Assembly: GCF_058153355.1 (NCBI RefSeq)
Contig: NZ_CM177019.1
Length of the DNA: 64,000 nucleotides
Reading direction: 5' to 3' (one strand)
A program made the position numbers and the translations under genes. Positions 3,316-57,299 of the stretch are shown here, in pieces; position 1 is the stretch's first letter, and every line of letters begins with the position of its first letter. The notes under the pieces are model-generated. The model was not told the origin of the DNA, searched no databases, and was given only the letters and a program-made list of their open reading frames with translations.

Positions 3316-4059
3316 ATGACTATAGCACTTGTGACCGGTGGCAGTCGCGGCATCGGGCGGGCAACTGCATTACTGTTGGCGCAAGAAGGATATACGGTGG
3401 CGGTTAATTATCAGCAAAACCGCCACGCAGCGCAGGAAGTTGTGAACTTAATAACTGAAGCAGGTGGCAAAGCGTTTGCGCTCCAGGCGGATATCAGTGA
3501 CGAAAATCAGGTCATCGCAATGTTTACAGCAATCGATCAGCACGATGAACCGCTAGCCGCGCTGGTCAATAACGCCGGGATCTTGTTTACCCAGTGCACC
3601 GTAGAAAACCTTACCGCAGAGCGAATCAACCGGGTACTTTCCACCAATGTGACGGGATATTTTCTCTGTTGCCGCGAGGCGGTAAAACGCATGGCGCTTA
3701 AAAATGGCGGTAATGGCGGTGCTATCGTCAATGTCTCTTCAGTGGCCTCACGGCTGGGATCTCCGGGGGAATACGTTGATTATGCGGCCTCGAAAGGGGC
3801 GATTGATACGTTAACCACCGGACTATCGCTGGAAGTCGCCGCGCAGGGGATCCGCGTTAACGGCGTGCGGCCAGGGTTTATTTATACCGAAATGCACGCC
3901 AGCGGTGGCGAGCCTGGACGCGTTGATCGCGTTAAGTCGAATATCCCCATGCAGCGTGGCGGACAGGCGGAAGAGGTCGCGCAGGCCATCGTCTGGCTGT
4001 TAAGTGATAAAGCCTCTTATGTCACGGGAAGTTTTATCGATTTGGCGGGTGGAAAATAA
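3316..4059 (+). CDS. ygfF: short-chain dehydrogenase/reductase YgfF
   Basis: 247 aa with the TGGSRGIG Rossmann motif and the YxxxK SDR catalytic motif (YAASK). Synteny with gcvP and bglA supports the call. Confidence 0.9.
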   Translation: MTIALVTGGSRGIGRATALLLAQEGYTVAVNYQQNRHAAQEVVNLITEAGGKAFALQADISDENQVIAMFTAIDQHDEPLAALVNNAGILFTQCTVENLTAERINRVLSTNVTGYFLCCREAVKRMALKNGGNGGAIVNVSSVASRLGSPGEYVDYAASKGAIDTLTTGLSLEVAAQGIRVNGVRPGFIYTEMHASGGEPGRVDRVKSNIPMQRGGQAEEVAQAIVWLLSDKASYVTGSFIDLAGGK

Positions 4060-52706: not shown

Positions 52707-52780
52707 GCGGGCGTAGTTCAATGGTAGAACGAGAGCTTCCCAAGCTCTATACGAGGGTTCGATTCCCTTCGTCCGCTCCA
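52707..52780 (+). tRNA. glyU: tRNA-Gly (anticodon CCC)
   Basis: 74 nt, GCGGGCGTAGTTCAATGGTAGAACGAGAGCTTCCCAAGCTCTATACGAGGGTTCGATTCCCTTCGTCCGCTCCA. It folds into a cloverleaf with CCC at 52739-52741 and an encoded CCA end. Confidence 0.95.
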
Positions 52781-52944: not shown

Positions 52945-54309
52945 ATGCTGCTTTCAGACCTTGCCATCAGGCGCGCGAAGCCGAAAGAAAAGGCTTATAC
53001 ACTCAATGACGGTAACGGGCTTTCGTTGCTCATTGAGCCGAACGGTTCGAAAGGGTGGCGACTGCGCTACAGGTTTGCAGGAAAGCCCAAAATGTTGTCG
53101 TTGGGTGTGTACCCTGATGTGTCTCTGTCTGATGCCAGGGCGGCAAGGGATGAGGCTAAAAGGCTTCTTGCTGGTGGTATAAATCCAAGTGAGGCCAGAA
53201 AAGCCCAAAAGCGAGAACAGGCGAGCAAATTTGGCAATACTTTTGAGGGTATCGCTCGCGAATGGTACGAAAAGCGGATCGACAGGTGGTCATCGTCATA
53301 CGCCGAGGAAATGATCGAGACGTTTGAAAAAGACGTTTTTCCGTACATTGGCGGTAGGCCGATCGCAGAAATTAAGCCGATGGAATTGCTGGCGGTTCTT
53401 TCCCGTCTTAATGACCGTGGTGCGACTGAAAAATTGCGTAAGGTTCGCCAGCGATGTGGCGAGGTGTTCCGGTACGCAATCATCACCGGACGCGCCGAAT
53501 ATAATCCAGCCCCTGACCTGGTGAGCGCATTTGCTCCACATAAAAAAGAGCATTACGCCTGTTTGAAGGCCGATGAACTGCCGGAATTTTTCCGCGTTTT
53601 TAATACGTACACCGGAAGCCAGATCGTCAAACTGGCAATGCGGCTATTAATTCTGACAGGTGTCAGACCCGGGGAATTACGGCAGGCAGAATGGCGGGAG
53701 ATCGATTTTGATAATCGTTTGTGGGAAGTGCCTAAAGAACGAATGAAGATGCGCCGTCCGCATTGCGTGCCATTACCAGAACAGGCGATAAAAATACTGG
53801 AGCAGTTAAAAAACATGACAGGTCAGTATCAGTTTATTTTCCCCGGTCGTATTCACCACAGTAAACCAATGAGTGAAATGGCAATGAATGTGCTCATTCG
53901 TCGTATTGGCTACGCCGGGCGCGTTACTGGTCATGGATTCCGGCACACCATGAGCACCATTTTGCATGAGCAGGGCTATAACACCGCGTGGATAGAGACA
54001 CAGCTTGCGCACGCCGATAAAAACTCAATTCGTGGCACATACAACCATGCGCAATATCTGGATGGCAGACGCGAAATGCTCCAGTGGTATGCCGACTATA
54101 TGGATTCGCTCGAGCATGGCGGAAATGTGGTGCATGGTGAGTTCGGAAAATGCGGGGGACTGGTTGAGTATACAGTAGTAGACTTTGAGCGACTAAAAAC
54201 GGCTGTGTCTAGGGTCGCTCCTGAAAACCCGTACACCTCTGCGGGCTGGCACAGCCACTATGGTAGAGGGCGCGAGGTGACGCGTGATCGATATTGCCGA
54301 ATTACTTAA
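52945..54309 (+). CDS. int: P4-type (DUF4102-containing) tyrosine integrase
   Basis: MLLSDLAIRRAKPKEKAYTLNDGNGLSLLIEPNGSKGWRLRYRF... is a typical P4-family N-terminus. The C-terminus has HGFRHT...AHA...RGTY catalytic residues. It lies 165 bp downstream of a tRNA gene. Confidence 0.9.
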   Translation: MLLSDLAIRRAKPKEKAYTLNDGNGLSLLIEPNGSKGWRLRYRFAGKPKMLSLGVYPDVSLSDARAARDEAKRLLAGGINPSEARKAQKREQASKFGNTFEGIAREWYEKRIDRWSSSYAEEMIETFEKDVFPYIGGRPIAEIKPMELLAVLSRLNDRGATEKLRKVRQRCGEVFRYAIITGRAEYNPAPDLVSAFAPHKKEHYACLKADELPEFFRVFNTYTGSQIVKLAMRLLILTGVRPGELRQAEWREIDFDNRLWEVPKERMKMRRPHCVPLPEQAIKILEQLKNMTGQYQFIFPGRIHHSKPMSEMAMNVLIRRIGYAGRVTGHGFRHTMSTILHEQGYNTAWIETQLAHADKNSIRGTYNHAQYLDGRREMLQWYADYMDSLEHGGNVVHGEFGKCGGLVEYTVVDFERLKTAVSRVAPENPYTSAGWHSHYGRGREVTRDRYCRIT

Positions 54310-54604
54310 CGCAGAAAAGAATAATTTCATTAGCCTGAGAGAGTTAATAGAGCGTATTAAATTATCTCAACCGAAAGCTACTACATCCCAGATAGTAAGT
54401 TTTCTTTATCAGACGCGGCAGAAATTACCCGAATGGGTTAAGTGGGATGAAATGATGGGCATTGAGCAAACATCGGAGAATCCTTTTGATGGGGATTGGT
54501 CTTTATCAGAGGTTCTTGAAGGCATTTTAAGACTAGGCTTTGTGCCAGAGGTTGAAGATTCTGTACCCCTCGCTATCGATGATAGCGACGATATTCCGTA
54601 TTGA
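54284..54604 (+). CDS. hypothetical acidic protein (106 aa), island cargo
   Basis: GTG-start ORF overlapping the int 3' end. AT-rich relative to its flanks. I recognise no family. Confidence 0.45.
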   Translation: MIDIAELLNAEKNNFISLRELIERIKLSQPKATTSQIVSFLYQTRQKLPEWVKWDEMMGIEQTSENPFDGDWSLSEVLEGILRLGFVPEVEDSVPLAIDDSDDIPY

Positions 54605-54623
54605 TGAAGACTTAAGGTGAATT

Positions 54624-55067
54624 ATGGCAGATGAAGTTTATTTGGCTCGTGCTTGTGATAAGTATGGTTTTCGTCGAGCAGAGCTTAAAGAATTTGCTGA
54701 AAAACTAGGGGTTAATTTATTTTCCCCAATGGATGAAATAACCCAGTCCATTCCTGAGGTTGCTGCTAGTGATTCTTTGAATAATGGGCCGACTGTTGAT
54801 GAATTACGTGCGGAAATTGCTTTACTTAAAGCGCGAATTGAAGAACTTGAAAGCGAACGACCAATTCTCTTAAATAAATACAGGGATAATGATCCGCTAT
54901 ATCTGGCTATCGAGATTAGAAACAGAGAGTGGGCCAATTACGACCCGGAGAATGATCGCGCCACCAGGGGAAACCAGGGCGCGATTACTACTGAGCTTGA
55001 AAAACGAGGTTTTACCTCCCGACAGGCCGCATCTATTGAGCTTGTCGCCTGTCCTATCAAACGATGA
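54624..55067 (+). CDS. hypothetical coiled-coil protein (147 aa), island cargo
   Basis: ATG preceded by AAGGTGA. The central segment ELRAEIALLKARIEELESE looks like a coiled coil. I recognise no family. Confidence 0.5.
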   Translation: MADEVYLARACDKYGFRRAELKEFAEKLGVNLFSPMDEITQSIPEVAASDSLNNGPTVDELRAEIALLKARIEELESERPILLNKYRDNDPLYLAIEIRNREWANYDPENDRATRGNQGAITTELEKRGFTSRQAASIELVACPIKR

Positions 55068-55072
55068 AGCCT

Positions 55073-55220
55073 TACCCTAGAGGTATCTCATGTTTTGTTC
55101 GCGTCTCACCCTAAGGGTAATCAGACCTCACCCTTAGGGTATTTTTGTATGCTTTCCCATCAATTTTACTATTACCCTTAGGGTAAAAATATTCCCGATT
55201 ACCATTAGGCCTGAGGGTAT
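55073..55220. repeat. array of 13-bp palindromes YACCCTWAGGGTA (4 good copies + 1 degenerate) upstream of alpA
   Basis: Copies at 55073-55085 (TACCCTAGAGGTA), 55107-55119 (CACCCTAAGGGTA), 55129-55141 (CACCCTTAGGGTA) and 55173-55185 (TACCCTTAGGGTA). A degenerate copy lies at about 55200-55220. Confidence 0.8.
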
Positions 55221-55287
55221 GAAAATATTCGTTATTTCTGTGCCATGATTACCTCGTCAAATTGAGTAGACGTTATGAGGTAAATAT

Positions 55288-55485
55288 ATGTCAAATACGC
55301 TTATTCGTTTAACGGAAGTTCAGCGTAGAACTGGATATAGCAAGGCATGGATTTATCGCCTTATGGGGCAAGGTAAATTTCCTGCATCAGTTAAAATTGG
55401 CTCGCGAGCTATTGCTTTCGTTGAGAGTGAAATTGACGAGTGGATTAATCAGCGTATTGCTGAATCACGCGGAACAGCTACCTGA
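55288..55485 (+). CDS. alpA: AlpA-family (MerR-like wHTH) prophage transcriptional regulator / excisionase-like protein
   Basis: 65 aa, LIRLTEVQRRTGYSKAWIYRLMGQGKFPASVKIGSRAIAFVESEIDEWI, matching the AlpA/Phage_AlpA pattern. Confidence 0.88.
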   Translation: MSNTLIRLTEVQRRTGYSKAWIYRLMGQGKFPASVKIGSRAIAFVESEIDEWINQRIAESRGTAT

Positions 55486-55563: not shown

Positions 55564-56364
55564 ATGAAATTTCCAAAAACGCCCATACAGGGGCAGGGCT
55601 TCGTTCGGCTTGAAAACCAGAATCTGCAAAATTTTGGCAAAATTATCCCGGTTATTTCCGGCGTTATTGGCGGGCGTGAAACCAATATTGTTAGCGCCAG
55701 AGCGTTGCATAAGGCGCTCGGGGTAGGCCGTGATTTCACAACCTGGATTAAAGTACGCATTGATGAGTACGGATTTAAAAAGGGCGTGGATTTTGAATTC
55801 GTAGAAAATTTGACCTCCCCCAATCCGGTGAGCGCAAAATCTCGCCAACGTATAGAGCACGACTACCTGAGCACTATCAACATGGCGAAAGAACTGGCGA
55901 TGGTCGAACGCACCGAACAGGGCCGCGCCGTTCGTCAGTATTTCATCAAATGCGAGGAGGAGCTACACAAGGTAGCGCCTGTGCGTTCCGCAGCGTTACG
56001 CCGGGAACTGAAAGCCCGTATCACTGTTGCCAGCTACTTTAAGCCAATGTGCGCCGCGCTGGAGGCGTACCGGGCAGAACTGGGTAAAAACACTCTACAG
56101 CACCACTACACCACGGAAGCTAATATGCTGGCGCGTATCGTGCTGGGTGGCATGACTGCAAAACAGTGGGCACTGGCGAACGGCATCACAAGCGAACCAC
56201 GCGACCACATGAGCACGTTGCAGCTTGAGCACCTTTCTTACCTTGAGCAGAGCAATATCACGCTGATTGAGTTAGGCCAGGACTACCACCAGCGGAAAGC
56301 TGAATTAATTCGTCTTTCGCAGCGCTGGTTAGCCCGTCGCATGGAGGAAAACAACCATGTGTAA
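55564..56364 (+). CDS. phage antirepressor-family protein (AntA/AntB-type N-terminal domain)
   Basis: 266 aa. VSARALHKALGVGRDFTTWIKVRIDEYGFKKGVDF ... MAKELAMVERTEQGRAVRQYFIKCE is typical of AntA/AntB antirepressors. Confidence 0.75.
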   Translation: MKFPKTPIQGQGFVRLENQNLQNFGKIIPVISGVIGGRETNIVSARALHKALGVGRDFTTWIKVRIDEYGFKKGVDFEFVENLTSPNPVSAKSRQRIEHDYLSTINMAKELAMVERTEQGRAVRQYFIKCEEELHKVAPVRSAALRRELKARITVASYFKPMCAALEAYRAELGKNTLQHHYTTEANMLARIVLGGMTAKQWALANGITSEPRDHMSTLQLEHLSYLEQSNITLIELGQDYHQRKAELIRLSQRWLARRMEENNHV

Positions 56365-57018: not shown

Positions 57019-57198
57019 TTACTCTGATTCTTTGGCCTTGCGGCGCTGGCGGCGTTTGATCTCACCTTCAAGTGCCGAAACGATAAATTGTCCAGTGCTT
57101 TCGCCTTCTTCCTTTAAACTTTCTACAGCGTCAGCTATTGCATGGGGTACTCGTGCCTCAAGTTTTTTTGATTTTCCATTAACTGCTTTCGTTGCCAT
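57019..57198 (-). CDS. small ribbon-helix-helix-like DNA-binding protein (59 aa), putative island repressor
   Basis: MATKAVNGKSKKLEARVPHAIADAVESLKEEGESTGQFIVSALEGEIKRRQRRKAKESE shows a beta-strand/helix/helix pattern typical of Arc/CopG RHH proteins. It is divergent from an iteron-flanked promoter. Confidence 0.6.
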   Translation of the reverse strand: MATKAVNGKSKKLEARVPHAIADAVESLKEEGESTGQFIVSALEGEIKRRQRRKAKESE

Positions 57199-57219: not shown

Positions 57220-57299
57220 GTGGCTGACAGTATACACACAAGAAAATGGAAAAACACTATTGACGTGGCTGACACCTGTTACTAGTATAGTGGCTGACA
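57220..57299 (+). promoter_or_regulatory. sigma70 promoter TTGACG-N17-TAGTAT embedded in three GTGGCTGACA direct repeats
   Basis: -35 at 57260-57265 and -10 at 57283-57288, with an exact 17-nt spacer. GTGGCTGACA occurs at 57220-57229, 57265-57274 and 57290-57299. Confidence 0.7.

What the first reader, a model, noticed from the sequence alone, without database searches (positions are those of the whole stretch)
55073..55220. Array of four to five 13-bp palindromes YACCCTWAGGGTA directly upstream of alpA
Near-identical palindromes occur at 55073, 55107, 55129 and 55173, with a degenerate copy near 55208. Their spacing is irregular (34/22/44/35 bp), and they fill the whole 220-bp spacer before the alpA start at 55288. 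This density points to cooperative binding of a dimeric regulator that controls alpA and hence excision, or to a recombination directionality or origin function. No obvious candidate binder is annotated. The RHH protein at 57019-57198 has its own distinct GTGGCTGACA sites.
Basis: seen in the sequence. Interest (0 to 1): 0.55.

Follow-up and report, generated by a model that had tools for sequence, protein, structure and literature searches.

The report
Operator array gating satellite master regulator
The repeated palindromes are real, are conserved across many bacterial genera, and are most likely the docking sites for the uncharacterised protein encoded just upstream, which together with them forms a swappable control cassette for alpA, the master switch of a phage-satellite island.

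Summary
Confirmed. Three exact ACCCTWAGGGT palindromes (55108, 55130, 55174), one degenerate copy (55074) and one half-degenerate copy (55208) fill the 220-bp spacer before alpA. No other exact copy occurs in the 64 kb. The spacings of 34/22/44/34 bp are not irregular: they are about 3, 2, 4 and 3 helical turns.

The array does not follow AlpA, the integrase or antA. Three islands with 100% identical AlpA carry three different repeat arrays. The array follows the C-terminal ~66-aa three-helix domain of the orphan gene just upstream (orf147, 54624-55067). All 56 loci with that domain have 1-6 such sites (41 distinct spacers; 36 of them with at least three) between the gene and alpA. Site density is 13.2 per kb inside the spacer and 0.011 per kb outside it. 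This holds even in relatives from hosts with 54-60% GC.

Two other C-terminal domain types in the same int-alpA slot carry their own repeat types. One of them is a detectable homologue with a different third helix.

Best reading: a replaceable ~0.9-kb cassette (regulator gene, cognate operator array, core promoter) that gates alpA in PICI-like satellites. Binding itself and the sign of control are inferred, not shown. No description was found in the searchable literature.

The parts
55073..55085 (.). Site 1, TACCCTAGAGGTA. Degenerate palindrome (2 mismatches) that starts 6 bp after the orf147 stop codon.
   Evidence: The equivalent position (-211 from the alpA ATG) holds perfect ACCCTCAGGGT in relatives.
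55107..55119 (.). Site 2, CACCCTAAGGGTA. Exact 11-bp palindrome core.
55129..55141 (.). Site 3, CACCCTTAGGGTA. Exact core, 22 bp (2 turns) from site 2.
55173..55185 (.). Site 4, TACCCTTAGGGTA. Exact core at -114 from the alpA ATG, a position fixed in nearly all relatives.
55200..55219 (.). Site 5, the composite TACCATTAGGCCTGAGGGTA. The 11-mer GGCCTGAGGGT at 55208-55218 (-80) has a perfect promoter-proximal half-site and a degenerate distal half. This weak proximal site is conserved in position.
   Evidence: NGCCTGAGGGT at -79 to -81 in most type A loci.
54624..55067 (+). orf147, the candidate binder. It has a variable N-terminal part, a coiled coil (about residues 58-87) and a conserved C-terminal three-helix domain (residues 82-147, DNA 54867-55064). 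The signature is ...DPLxLAIEIRNxEW...RQAxSIELVACPIKR. It has its own Shine-Dalgarno sequence (AAGGTG, 54615-54620).
   Evidence: Co-occurrence with the motif.
54284..54604 (+). orf106, a separate gene here. It is homologous to the N-terminal extension of the fused 248-257-aa family members, so it probably belongs to the same regulatory cassette.
   Evidence: P0004 and P0038 N-termini.
55220..55249 (+). Best recurrent candidate core promoter: TGAAAA (55220-55225), 18 bp, then TGcCATGAT (extended -10, 55241-55249). It is weak and has not been mapped. An alternative is TTACCA (55199-55204), 16 bp, GAAAAT (55221-55226).
   Evidence: No consensus-grade sigma-70 promoter lies anywhere in the spacer. 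This is inference only.
55250..55282 (+). alpA leader hairpin (TACCTCGT ... ATGAGGTA) that pairs the Shine-Dalgarno GAGG with an upstream anti-SD. It lies in the segment shared by all cassette types; homology between islands resumes at -35 from the ATG.
55288..55485 (+). alpA (65 aa, Pfam Phage_AlpA). It is the master activator of Gram-negative PICIs and the gene that the array precedes.
   Evidence: literature PMC6092414 and PMC11773190.

Best explanation
The five phased palindromes are the cognate operator array of the protein encoded immediately upstream (orf147). The protein is predicted to dimerise through its coiled coil and to read each 13-bp dyad with its conserved C-terminal three-helix domain. 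Dimers on sites spaced by whole helical turns would bind cooperatively along one face of the DNA, down to a weak proximal site that abuts or overlaps the alpA core promoter. In this way the protein would set whether alpA, the master activator of this PICI-type phage satellite, is transcribed.

Gene, array and core promoter form a replaceable cassette of about 0.9 kb between int and the alpA leader. The variable N-terminal part would be the input (sensor) side. By analogy with SaPI Stl, the most likely input is a helper-phage protein.

Shown here: the array is real, phased, conserved and confined to this spacer. It co-varies with the C-terminal domain and not with AlpA, Int or antA. The cassette is exchanged as a unit.

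Inferred: the domain binds the DNA, the target is the alpA promoter, and the input comes from a helper phage.

The sign of control is unresolved. I lean about 55:45 towards negative control, that is, holding alpA off and/or blocking read-through from the int operon until the block is relieved, over activation from an upstream activating array.
For: (1) Specificity. Among 80 alpA loci from Enterobacterales, YACCCT half-sites upstream of alpA occur at three or more per spacer only where an orf147 homologue lies upstream; one partial orf147 locus has a single half-site, and loci without the gene have at most two. All 56 loci with the homologue have alpA 70-290 bp downstream (160-290 bp in all but two) and 1-6 sites in between. 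In 41 distinct spacers there are 132 sites in 9,993 bp, against 3 in 266,282 bp outside and 6 in 528,262 bp of loci that lack orf147.

(2) Natural swap. L025, L026 and L028 encode 100% identical AlpA but carry three different arrays. L025 and L026 are 87.5% identical through int, unrelated over the next ~900 bp, then 99.6% identical from -35 of alpA onward.

(3) Protein-DNA co-variation. There are three C-terminal domain types and three repeat types: A, ACCCTNAGGGT; B, 5-7 direct ACTTCCAAA repeats; C, GGTGGGYAC and its complement. N-terminal domains shuffle among the types and the motif follows the C-terminal domain. Types A and C are homologous (hhalign 93%, E 3e-7) but differ in helix 3.

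(4) Deep conservation. Remote members (E 1e-4 to 1e-3, hosts with 54-60% GC, helix 3 ...VACPFDR / VASPINR) again sit int -> protein -> 170-190 bp -> alpA, with 2-4 (A/G)CCCTNAGGG sites in otherwise unalignable spacers. L161, a distant 258-aa member in a different gene context, is again followed by three TACCCTNAGGGTA-type sites plus a degenerate fourth.

(5) Anatomy. The sites have dyad symmetry and the protein has a coiled coil. The C-terminal model is a three-helix bundle with pLDDT 84. Spacings are helically phased. The register to alpA is fixed. The domain always sits at the extreme C-terminus, behind variable N-terminal regions, in all 70 clusters found in 1.84 billion proteins.

(6) Biology. 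alpA is the helper-induced master switch of Gram-negative PICIs. Whether these elements have a repressor is 'unclear' and the inducer is unidentified (PMC6092414).
Confidence: 0.62

Rival explanations
1. The binder is the same (orf147 family) but the sign is opposite. The array is an upstream activating sequence. Helper-triggered oligomerisation of the protein fills the weak proximal site next to the -35 region and recruits RNA polymerase to an intrinsically weak alpA promoter.
For: No consensus-grade sigma-70 promoter exists in the spacer of type A, B or C cassettes. With the recurrent candidate TGAAAA-18-TGnCATCAT, every site lies upstream of -35 and the proximal site is centred near -45. 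The strongest sites are distal and the weakest is proximal, as at many activator-dependent promoters (established knowledge: OmpR, PhoB, lambda cI at PRM). alpA is off by default even in PICIs that lack a slot gene (PMC6092414).
Against: The transcription start is not mapped. An alternative promoter assignment, TTACCA-16-GAAAAT, puts site 5 inside the promoter spacer, which is a repressor geometry. The protein appears to be made with int in the quiescent state, where known regulators of mobile elements are mostly repressors (prior knowledge). The L161 array has no downstream co-directional target. Array-bearing cassettes lack the intrinsic terminator seen after DUF6387-type slot genes, which fits a blocking role.
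Confidence: 0.28
2. The array is bound by something else, such as a helper-phage transcription factor or a host factor, and orf147 is merely a linked neighbour. It could be an accessory or defence gene in the int-alpA 'accessory' slot.
For: Helper phages induce alpA transcription through an unidentified factor (PMC6092414). The literature treats genes between int and the regulator as accessory genes (PMC10085698). The array is directly adjacent to the gene, so co-inheritance is expected. The fold search does not identify a DNA-binding fold.
Against: The motif persists next to the domain at about 30% protein identity, in hosts with 54-60% GC and in otherwise unalignable spacers, and also in a different gene context (L161). 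Three domain types pair one-to-one with three motif types despite N-terminal domain shuffling. A scan of 2.9 million viral contigs for motif pairs found 47 stretches, about 35 of them in this satellite context and none in a recognisable enterobacterial phage regulatory region. orf147 has no tblastn hit in 50,697 phage genomes. There is no PADLOC hit.
Confidence: 0.12
3. The palindromes are AlpA's own sites for positive autoregulation or excision control.
For: AlpA activates its own promoter in EcCICFT073 and EcCIMP1. The array lies directly upstream of alpA.
Against: Identical AlpA proteins sit behind three unrelated arrays (L025, L026, L028). Of 80 loci with AlpA 68-87% identical to the window's protein, 71 have no such motif. 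Loci whose AlpA is only 40-43% identical still carry the motif (L124, L125). The characterised EcCIMP1 has neither the array nor orf147.
Confidence: 0.03
4. The palindromes are integrase arm-type or RDF sites, replication-origin iterons, or a packaging site.
For: The sites are repeated and phased, and 22-bp spacing recalls iterons. The island encodes an integrase with an arm-binding domain.
Against: The array is 2.3 kb from the tRNA-Gly attachment end. The sites are palindromic rather than directly repeated. Integrases of array-bearing loci range from 37 to 99% identity, and similar integrases occur without the array. In the intact relative L001 the primase gene, beside which PICI origins lie, is more than 3 kb downstream. 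The array keeps a fixed register to the alpA start.
Confidence: 0.03

Closest known systems
Stl/Rpr master repressor and its operators in SaPIs and other Gram-positive PICIs
   Same: A satellite-encoded DNA-binding regulator next to int controls the satellite's master genes. It is built from a conserved DNA-binding part and a highly variable part (in Stl, the part that binds helper-phage proteins). It is exchanged among related islands, giving each island its own specificity.
   Different: Stl has an N-terminal HTH and is transcribed divergently from the genes it represses. Here the conserved domain is C-terminal with an unclassified three-helix fold, the gene is co-directional with int and alpA, the target is an activator gene, and neither binding, sign nor helper input has been tested.
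Immunity (repressor-operator) modules of lambdoid phages
   Same: Several near-identical dyad-symmetric operators are bound cooperatively by dimers. One weak site depends on its neighbours. The whole regulator-plus-operator unit is swapped between otherwise near-identical elements, as in the imm regions.
   Different: Lambdoid operators are 17 bp, number three per control region, and overlap divergent promoters. Here there are 1-6 13-bp sites (usually 3-6) spread over 140-170 bp at spacings of 2-4 turns, downstream of the regulator gene, and no site lies at the regulator's own promoter.
AlpR-alpA control in Pseudomonas aeruginosa
   Same: An alpA-family master regulator is held under the control of a dedicated upstream-encoded DNA-binding protein.
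   Different: From my own knowledge, not tested here: AlpR is a LexA-like, self-cleaving HTH repressor, divergently transcribed, and responds to DNA damage. There is no sequence relation to orf147 and no multi-site array.
Phased activator-site arrays at OmpR- or PhoB-type promoters
   Same: Several sites lie on one helical face upstream of a weak core promoter, with the weakest site nearest the -35 region.
   Different: Those sites are direct repeats bound by response regulators. Here they are palindromes next to a coiled-coil protein of unknown family.

Membership tests
Operator array of a dimeric transcription regulator | Dyad-symmetric sites of 11-17 bp | tested here: met
   ACCCT-N-AGGGT with conserved flanking T/A.
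Operator array of a dimeric transcription regulator | Sites conserved across diverged relatives while the spacers diverge | tested here: met
   Alignment A1 of 8 genera, 41 distinct spacers, and remote loci L182, L184 and L185.
Operator array of a dimeric transcription regulator | Multiple sites in helical register, allowing cooperativity | tested here: met
   Spacings cluster at 22-23, 32-34 and 42-44 bp; resultant 0.82 at a 10.5-bp period.
Operator array of a dimeric transcription regulator | Sites overlap or abut the promoter of the regulated gene | tested here: inconclusive
   The register to the alpA ATG is fixed (-114, -80), but no transcription start is known. Two weak candidate promoters give opposite geometries.
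Operator array of a dimeric transcription regulator | A cognate protein binds the sites | not testable with these tools
   Only co-variation with the orf147 C-terminal domain is available.
Stl-like PICI master repressor module | Encoded by the satellite, next to int, upstream of the master lifecycle genes | tested here: met
   The order int -> (orf106) -> orf147 -> array -> alpA is seen in the window and in all 56 type A loci plus remote members.
Stl-like PICI master repressor module | Recognisable DNA-binding domain (HTH of the Cro/CI type) | tested here: not met
Stl-like PICI master repressor module | Represses the satellite and is relieved by a helper-phage protein | not testable with these tools
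   Inference only. The variable N-terminal domains are compatible with a sensor role.
AlpA autoregulatory or excisionase sites | Site type co-varies with the AlpA protein | tested here: not met
   Identical AlpA occurs with three different arrays. The motif is absent from 71 of 80 alpA loci.
Integrase arm-type sites | Lie within about 200 bp of the att core and co-vary with the integrase arm-binding domain | tested here: not met
   The array is 2.3 kb from tRNA-Gly. Integrase identity is 37-99% among array-bearing loci, and similar integrases occur without the array.
Replication-origin iterons | Direct repeats adjacent to the rep/primase gene | tested here: not met
   The sites are palindromic and lie upstream of alpA. 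In L001 the primase gene is more than 3 kb downstream.
Gram-negative PICI (phage-inducible chromosomal island) | int, alpA and primase co-directional at a tRNA site, with no phage structural or lysis genes | tested here: met
   The intact relative L001 has int, slot gene, alpA, antA, Icd-like, DUF4222, DUF927 primase, ProQ/FinO and PerC. The window has int, alpA and antA at tRNA-Gly(CCC), with IS elements interrupting the rest. Helper-dependent mobilisation was not tested.

The most novel reading that the evidence does not exclude
The orf147 family and its type B and C counterparts could be the missing master regulators of a large class of Gram-negative phage satellites. In this reading each is a sensor protein whose variable N-terminal domain detects a particular helper phage, and whose previously undescribed C-terminal DNA-binding domain holds or fires the alpA switch through a phased operator array. 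The whole unit would be exchanged as a cassette that sets which helper can induce the island.
Probability: 0.35. Interest if true: 0.8.

Novelty: new variant of a known kind. Interest (0 to 1): 0.62.

Why it matters
AlpA is the master switch of Gram-negative phage-inducible chromosomal islands, which spread virulence, resistance and anti-phage genes. The founding paper states that whether these islands have a repressor is unclear and that the helper-phage inducer of alpA is unidentified (PMC6092414). No later identification turned up in the searchable library.

This analysis gives a concrete and cheap experimental handle. It provides a defined 150-bp array, a defined 147-aa candidate binder with a 66-aa conserved domain, and natural islands that differ only in the cassette. 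With these, the questions 'what keeps alpA off, and what makes a satellite specific to its helper' can be tested directly by EMSA, reporter assays and cassette swaps.

It also flags an unclassified protein domain. The domain has 70 clusters in 1.84 billion proteins, is always C-terminal, and in the ~65 members whose genomic context was examined lies next to the same DNA motif.

Tried and rejected
1. AlpA as the binder: rejected. Identical AlpA occurs with three different arrays and the motif is absent from most alpA loci.

2. Integrase arm sites, RDF sites or an origin: rejected on position and on lack of co-variation.

3. Terminators or hairpins: 5-bp arms around a 1-nt centre cannot form a useful hairpin, and no + strand terminator lies in the spacer.

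5. Family assignment: no hits for orf147 or orf106 in Pfam, PHROGs, NCBIfam or PADLOC, or by PDB sequence profile.

6. A phage-encoded homologue or a phage copy of the operator: no tblastn hit in 50,697 phages. Motif pairs in IMG/VR outside the satellite context were unrelated tandem repeats.

7. A link to the characterised PICIs. EcCIMP1 (E. coli MP1) has a 428-bp int-alpA spacer with neither the gene nor the array. In EcCICFT073 alpA is ORF2, so there is no slot gene. My guess at the EcCICFT073 coordinates landed on a lambdoid prophage instead. Published reporter data therefore do not bear on this cassette.

8. RNAalifold on a MAFFT alignment of alpA leaders gave no consensus because the alignment was poor. 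It was replaced by per-sequence folding.

9. A search of the literature for the motif strings found nothing relevant.

Full report
OBSERVATION

- Site 1: TACCCTAGAGGTA, 55073-55085.
- Site 2: CACCCTAAGGGTA, 55107-55119.
- Site 3: CACCCTTAGGGTA, 55129-55141.
- Site 4: TACCCTTAGGGTA, 55173-55185.
- Site 5: the composite TACCATTAGGCCTGAGGGTA, 55200-55219.

A pattern search finds three exact ACCCTWAGGGT matches within 77 bp and none elsewhere in the 64-kb window. Matches with two mismatches elsewhere are at chance level. About 0.03 exact copies would be expected in 64 kb. The array fills the 220-bp spacer between the stop codon of an orphan ORF (orf147, 54624-55067) and the alpA start at 55288.

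The spacings are 34/22/44/34 bp. The same quantisation holds across relatives (see 'Anatomy of the array').

CONTEXT

The region reads as follows:
- tRNA-Gly(CCC), 52707-52780.
- A tyrosine integrase with an arm-binding domain, 52945-54309.
- orf106, 54284-54604.
- orf147, followed by the array.
- alpA (Pfam Phage_AlpA), 55288-55485.
- An AntA/AntB antirepressor-family gene, 55564-56364.

The closest intact E. coli relative (SA31-1, L001) continues with Icd-like, DUF4222, a DUF927 primase, ProQ/FinO and PerC genes, and has no structural genes. That is the organisation of a Gram-negative phage-inducible chromosomal island (PICI). In the window the island is interrupted downstream by IS66-family and IS110-family elements.

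In PICIs of this kind, AlpA is the master activator. It activates its own promoter, and its transcription is induced by the helper phage through an unidentified factor. Whether these elements have a repressor is stated to be unclear (PMC6092414; PMC11773190).

WHICH PROTEIN THE ARRAY FOLLOWS

I fetched 80 loci from different species that encode AlpA proteins 68-87% identical to the window's. I then scanned the 300-400 bp upstream of each alpA.

The motif was present in only about nine loci. These came from Pantoea, Kluyvera, Klebsiella, Cedecea, Atlantibacter, Sodalis, Symbiopectobacterium and Photorhabdus. They were exactly the loci with a homologue of orf147 immediately upstream (one further Photorhabdus locus with a partial homologue, L043, has a single degenerate site). 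Integrase type (37-99% identity), AlpA identity and the presence of antA made no difference.

An alignment of eight genera shows the sites nearly invariant while the spacers between them have diverged. A search of IMG/VR with the protein family gave 45 more loci. In all 56 loci alpA follows 70-290 bp downstream (160-290 bp in all but two), and the spacer holds 1-6 sites, at least three in 36 of the 41 distinct spacers. Over those 41 distinct spacers there are 132 sites (at most one mismatch) in 9,993 bp, against 3 in 266,282 bp of flanking DNA. The 71 alpA loci without orf147 have 6 sites in 528,262 bp.

Searching in the other direction, a scan of 2.9 million viral contigs for an exact motif pair returned 47 stretches. 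About 35 of them are this same context. The rest are unrelated tandem repeats, with one exception: L161, described under 'Depth of the association'.

AlpA IS NOT THE SPECIFICITY DETERMINANT

L025 (Enterobacter), L026 (Kluyvera) and L028 (Lonsdalea) encode 100% identical AlpA proteins but carry three different repeat arrays upstream.

L025 and L026 are 87.5% identical through the integrase gene. They share no similarity over the next ~900 bp. They are then 99.6% identical from 35 bp upstream of the alpA ATG onward. The slot gene, the array and the core promoter region are therefore exchanged as one cassette, and the right-hand boundary is the first base of the alpA leader hairpin.

THREE DOMAIN TYPES, THREE MOTIF TYPES

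The proteins encoded in the int-alpA slot fall into groups. Three of the groups share shuffled N-terminal domains but differ at the C-terminus.
- Type A (...LAIEIRNxEW...SIELVACPIKR) is followed by ACCCTNAGGGT palindromes.
- Type B (...IAGMAIALEKS..GKYVRG...) is followed by 5-7 direct repeats of ACTTCCAAA.
- Type C (...ELWSTYDEDEP...AEAVNLVLRP...) is followed by GGTGGGYAC and its complement.

The same N-terminal domain occurs with type A (L007) and type B (L003, L066) C-termini, and the motif follows the C-terminus.

Types A and C are detectably homologous (hhalign probability 93%, E 3e-7) but differ in the third helix. That is the pattern expected of a DNA-reading domain whose specificity has changed.

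Other slot genes carry their own pairs of palindromes (L036, L018, L067, L013). The DUF6387 group instead ends with intrinsic terminators and has no array.

DEPTH OF THE ASSOCIATION

An exhaustive profile search with the 66-aa C-terminal domain found only 70 clusters in 1.84 billion representative proteins. The domain always lies at the extreme C-terminus of proteins 64-515 aa long. It usually follows a coiled coil and otherwise unrelated N-terminal regions. The most conserved element is helix 3 and its tail, A-x-A-[IV]-[ED]-x-V-[AS]-[CS]-P-[IF]-x-R.

The weakest members (E 1e-4 to 1e-3, hosts with 54-60% GC) again lie between an integrase gene and an alpA gene. Their spacers are otherwise unalignable but again contain 2-4 sites of the form (A/G)CCCTNAGGG(T/G).

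Short forms from Pasteurellaceae and others also sit 155-215 bp upstream of alpA. Some use a variant half-site, ACTAT, as in ACTATCATAGT. The same variant appears in the L007/L031/L040 lineages.

L161 encodes a 258-aa distant member (...AKAVERVACPINRGR) in a different gene neighbourhood. It is again followed directly by three TACCCTNAGGGTA-type sites plus a degenerate fourth, although the next gene is convergent and an alpA-like gene lies 3 kb away.

At these distances mere adjacency cannot preserve an 11-bp sequence. Selection must be acting, and the one component that is both present wherever the motif is found and absent from alpA loci that lack it is this domain.

THE PROTEIN

orf147 has its own Shine-Dalgarno sequence. 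Seventy-six homologues were found, all annotated as hypothetical. It matches nothing in Pfam, PHROGs, NCBIfam or PADLOC, nothing by PDB sequence profile, and nothing by tblastn in 50,697 phage genomes.

The alignment shows a variable N-terminus, a heptad-rich helix (about residues 58-87) and the highly conserved C-terminal domain. About 250-aa forms carry an N-terminal extension homologous to the separate orf106 of this window.

ANATOMY OF THE ARRAY

Across 41 distinct spacers the core consensus is T-N-A-C-C-C-T-N-A-G-G-G-T-A. Core positions are more than 83% conserved, most of them above 90%, but these sites were selected by matching the motif.

Site-to-site spacings cluster at 22-23, 32-34 and 42-44 bp, with a resultant vector of 0.82 at a 10.5-bp period. 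Copy number varies from 1 to 6 through gain and loss of units.

The two proximal sites keep fixed positions, about -114 and -80 from the alpA ATG. The proximal site is always the weakest: its promoter-side half is perfect and its distal half is degenerate. No site occurs elsewhere in the island, so the system appears to have a single target.

SIGN OF CONTROL

No consensus-grade sigma-70 promoter is present in the spacer of any cassette type. Two weak candidates remain.
- The recurrent type A candidate is TGAAAA-18-TGnCAT(C/G)AT, at 55220-55249 in the window. It puts every site upstream of -35, with the proximal site near -45. That is an activator-like geometry. It also places the transcription start inside the 5' arm of the leader hairpin.
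- The alternative, TTACCA-16-GAAAAT, puts site 5 inside the promoter spacer. That is a repressor geometry, and it keeps the whole hairpin in the mRNA.

Three things favour negative control. The gene is placed in the int operon of the quiescent element. Array-bearing cassettes lack the terminator seen after DUF6387 slot genes. The L161 array has no downstream target. The Stl precedent points the same way. I lean 55:45 towards negative control and regard the sign as open.

COMPARISON WITH WHAT IS KNOWN

Functionally the closest systems are the Stl/Rpr master repressors of Gram-positive PICIs and the immunity modules of lambdoid phages. All involve a regulator and its multiple cooperative operators exchanged as a unit.

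The resemblance is not membership. There is no HTH of the Cro/CI type. The gene is co-directional with its target. The conserved domain is C-terminal and unclassified. No binding or derepression has been shown.

The two characterised E. coli PICIs do not carry this cassette. EcCIMP1 has neither the gene nor the array, and in EcCICFT073 alpA is ORF2. Published reporter data therefore do not apply to it. No paper in the searchable library mentions the motif or assigns a regulatory role to the int-alpA slot genes, which are described as accessory (PMC10085698; PMC10111431).

VERDICT

Its recombination and origin alternatives are not.

The added result is a specific, testable binder and a general architecture: int, then a regulator gene with a variable input domain, then a cognate phased array and a weak promoter, then the shared SD-sequestering leader, then alpA.

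I rate this a new variant of a known kind of system, built on an undescribed protein domain. It is of moderate to high interest to the phage-satellite field because it makes the open question of alpA gating directly testable. Every mechanistic step beyond co-variation and anatomy is inference.

Noticed in passing
window 55250-55282; alpA leaders of L001-L126: The alpA leader forms a hairpin that pairs the Shine-Dalgarno sequence with an upstream anti-SD (here TACCTCGT ... ATGAGGTA). In 84 distinct leaders the SD is paired in the MFE fold in 88%. Many different arm sequences are used (CTCGTAA/TTACGAG, CTCCTGTAG/CTACAGGAG, CCCCTGT/ACAGGGG, CACCTCA/TGAGGTG) behind nearly identical AlpA proteins, which points to an RNA-level structure. 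If transcription from the alpA promoter starts inside the 5' arm, the hairpin would silence only read-through transcripts from the int operon, as in IS10 'fold-back inhibition'. That idea is untested.
   Followed up: partly
window 57220-57229, 57265-57274, 57290-57299: Three exact copies of GTGGCTGACA lie just upstream of the small minus-strand gene at 57019-57198 (PHROG 949, unknown function). No other exact copy occurs in the window. One-mismatch copies total 13 against 3.6 expected. This looks like a second, separate repeat-and-small-protein pair in the same island.
   Followed up: partly
L003, L008, L009, L019, L028, L029, L032, L038, L039, L048, L066, L068 (spacer before alpA, about 3790-4000): Type B cassettes have 5-7 direct repeats of ACTTCCAAA (variants ACTTCTAAA, ATTTCCAAA). 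They always follow slot proteins ending ...IAGMAIALEKS..GKYVRG..., and the last repeat abuts a -35-like element.
   Followed up: partly
L002, L014, L025 (spacer before alpA): Type C cassettes have GGTGGGYAC/GTRCCCACC repeats behind slot proteins whose C-terminal domain is a remote homologue of the orf147 domain (hhalign 93%) with a different third helix.
   Followed up: partly
L004, L023, L033, L034 (3' end of the slot gene): Slot genes of the DUF6387 family end with clear intrinsic terminators (for example ACCGGAAG...CTTCCGGT followed by a T run) and have no repeat array. They may be true cargo genes rather than regulators.
   Followed up: no
L161 5476-6345: A distant 258-aa family member is followed by the TACCCTCAGGGTA array, although the next gene is a convergent XRE/cI-like repressor gene and an alpA-like gene lies 3 kb away. 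No promoter-operator explanation accounts for this arrangement.
   Followed up: partly
window 54284-55067: orf106 and orf147 are separate genes here, with a 19-bp gap and a separate SD for orf147. The same is true in Pantoea and Kluyvera relatives. In several E. coli and Salmonella relatives they are fused into one 248-257-aa protein (P0002, P0004, P0038).
   Followed up: partly
window 52945-54309: The integrase ORF is about 50 codons longer at its 3' end than the 404-aa protein annotated in E. coli SA31-1 (99% identical over residues 1-418), and it overlaps the start of orf106 by 26 bp. A lost stop codon is the likely cause.
   Followed up: no
window 58075-60438 and about 61149-63423: An IS66-family element (tnpA, tnpB, tnpC) and an IS110-like ISSso6-family transposase interrupt the island downstream of antA. 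The satellite in this genome is probably defective.
   Followed up: partly
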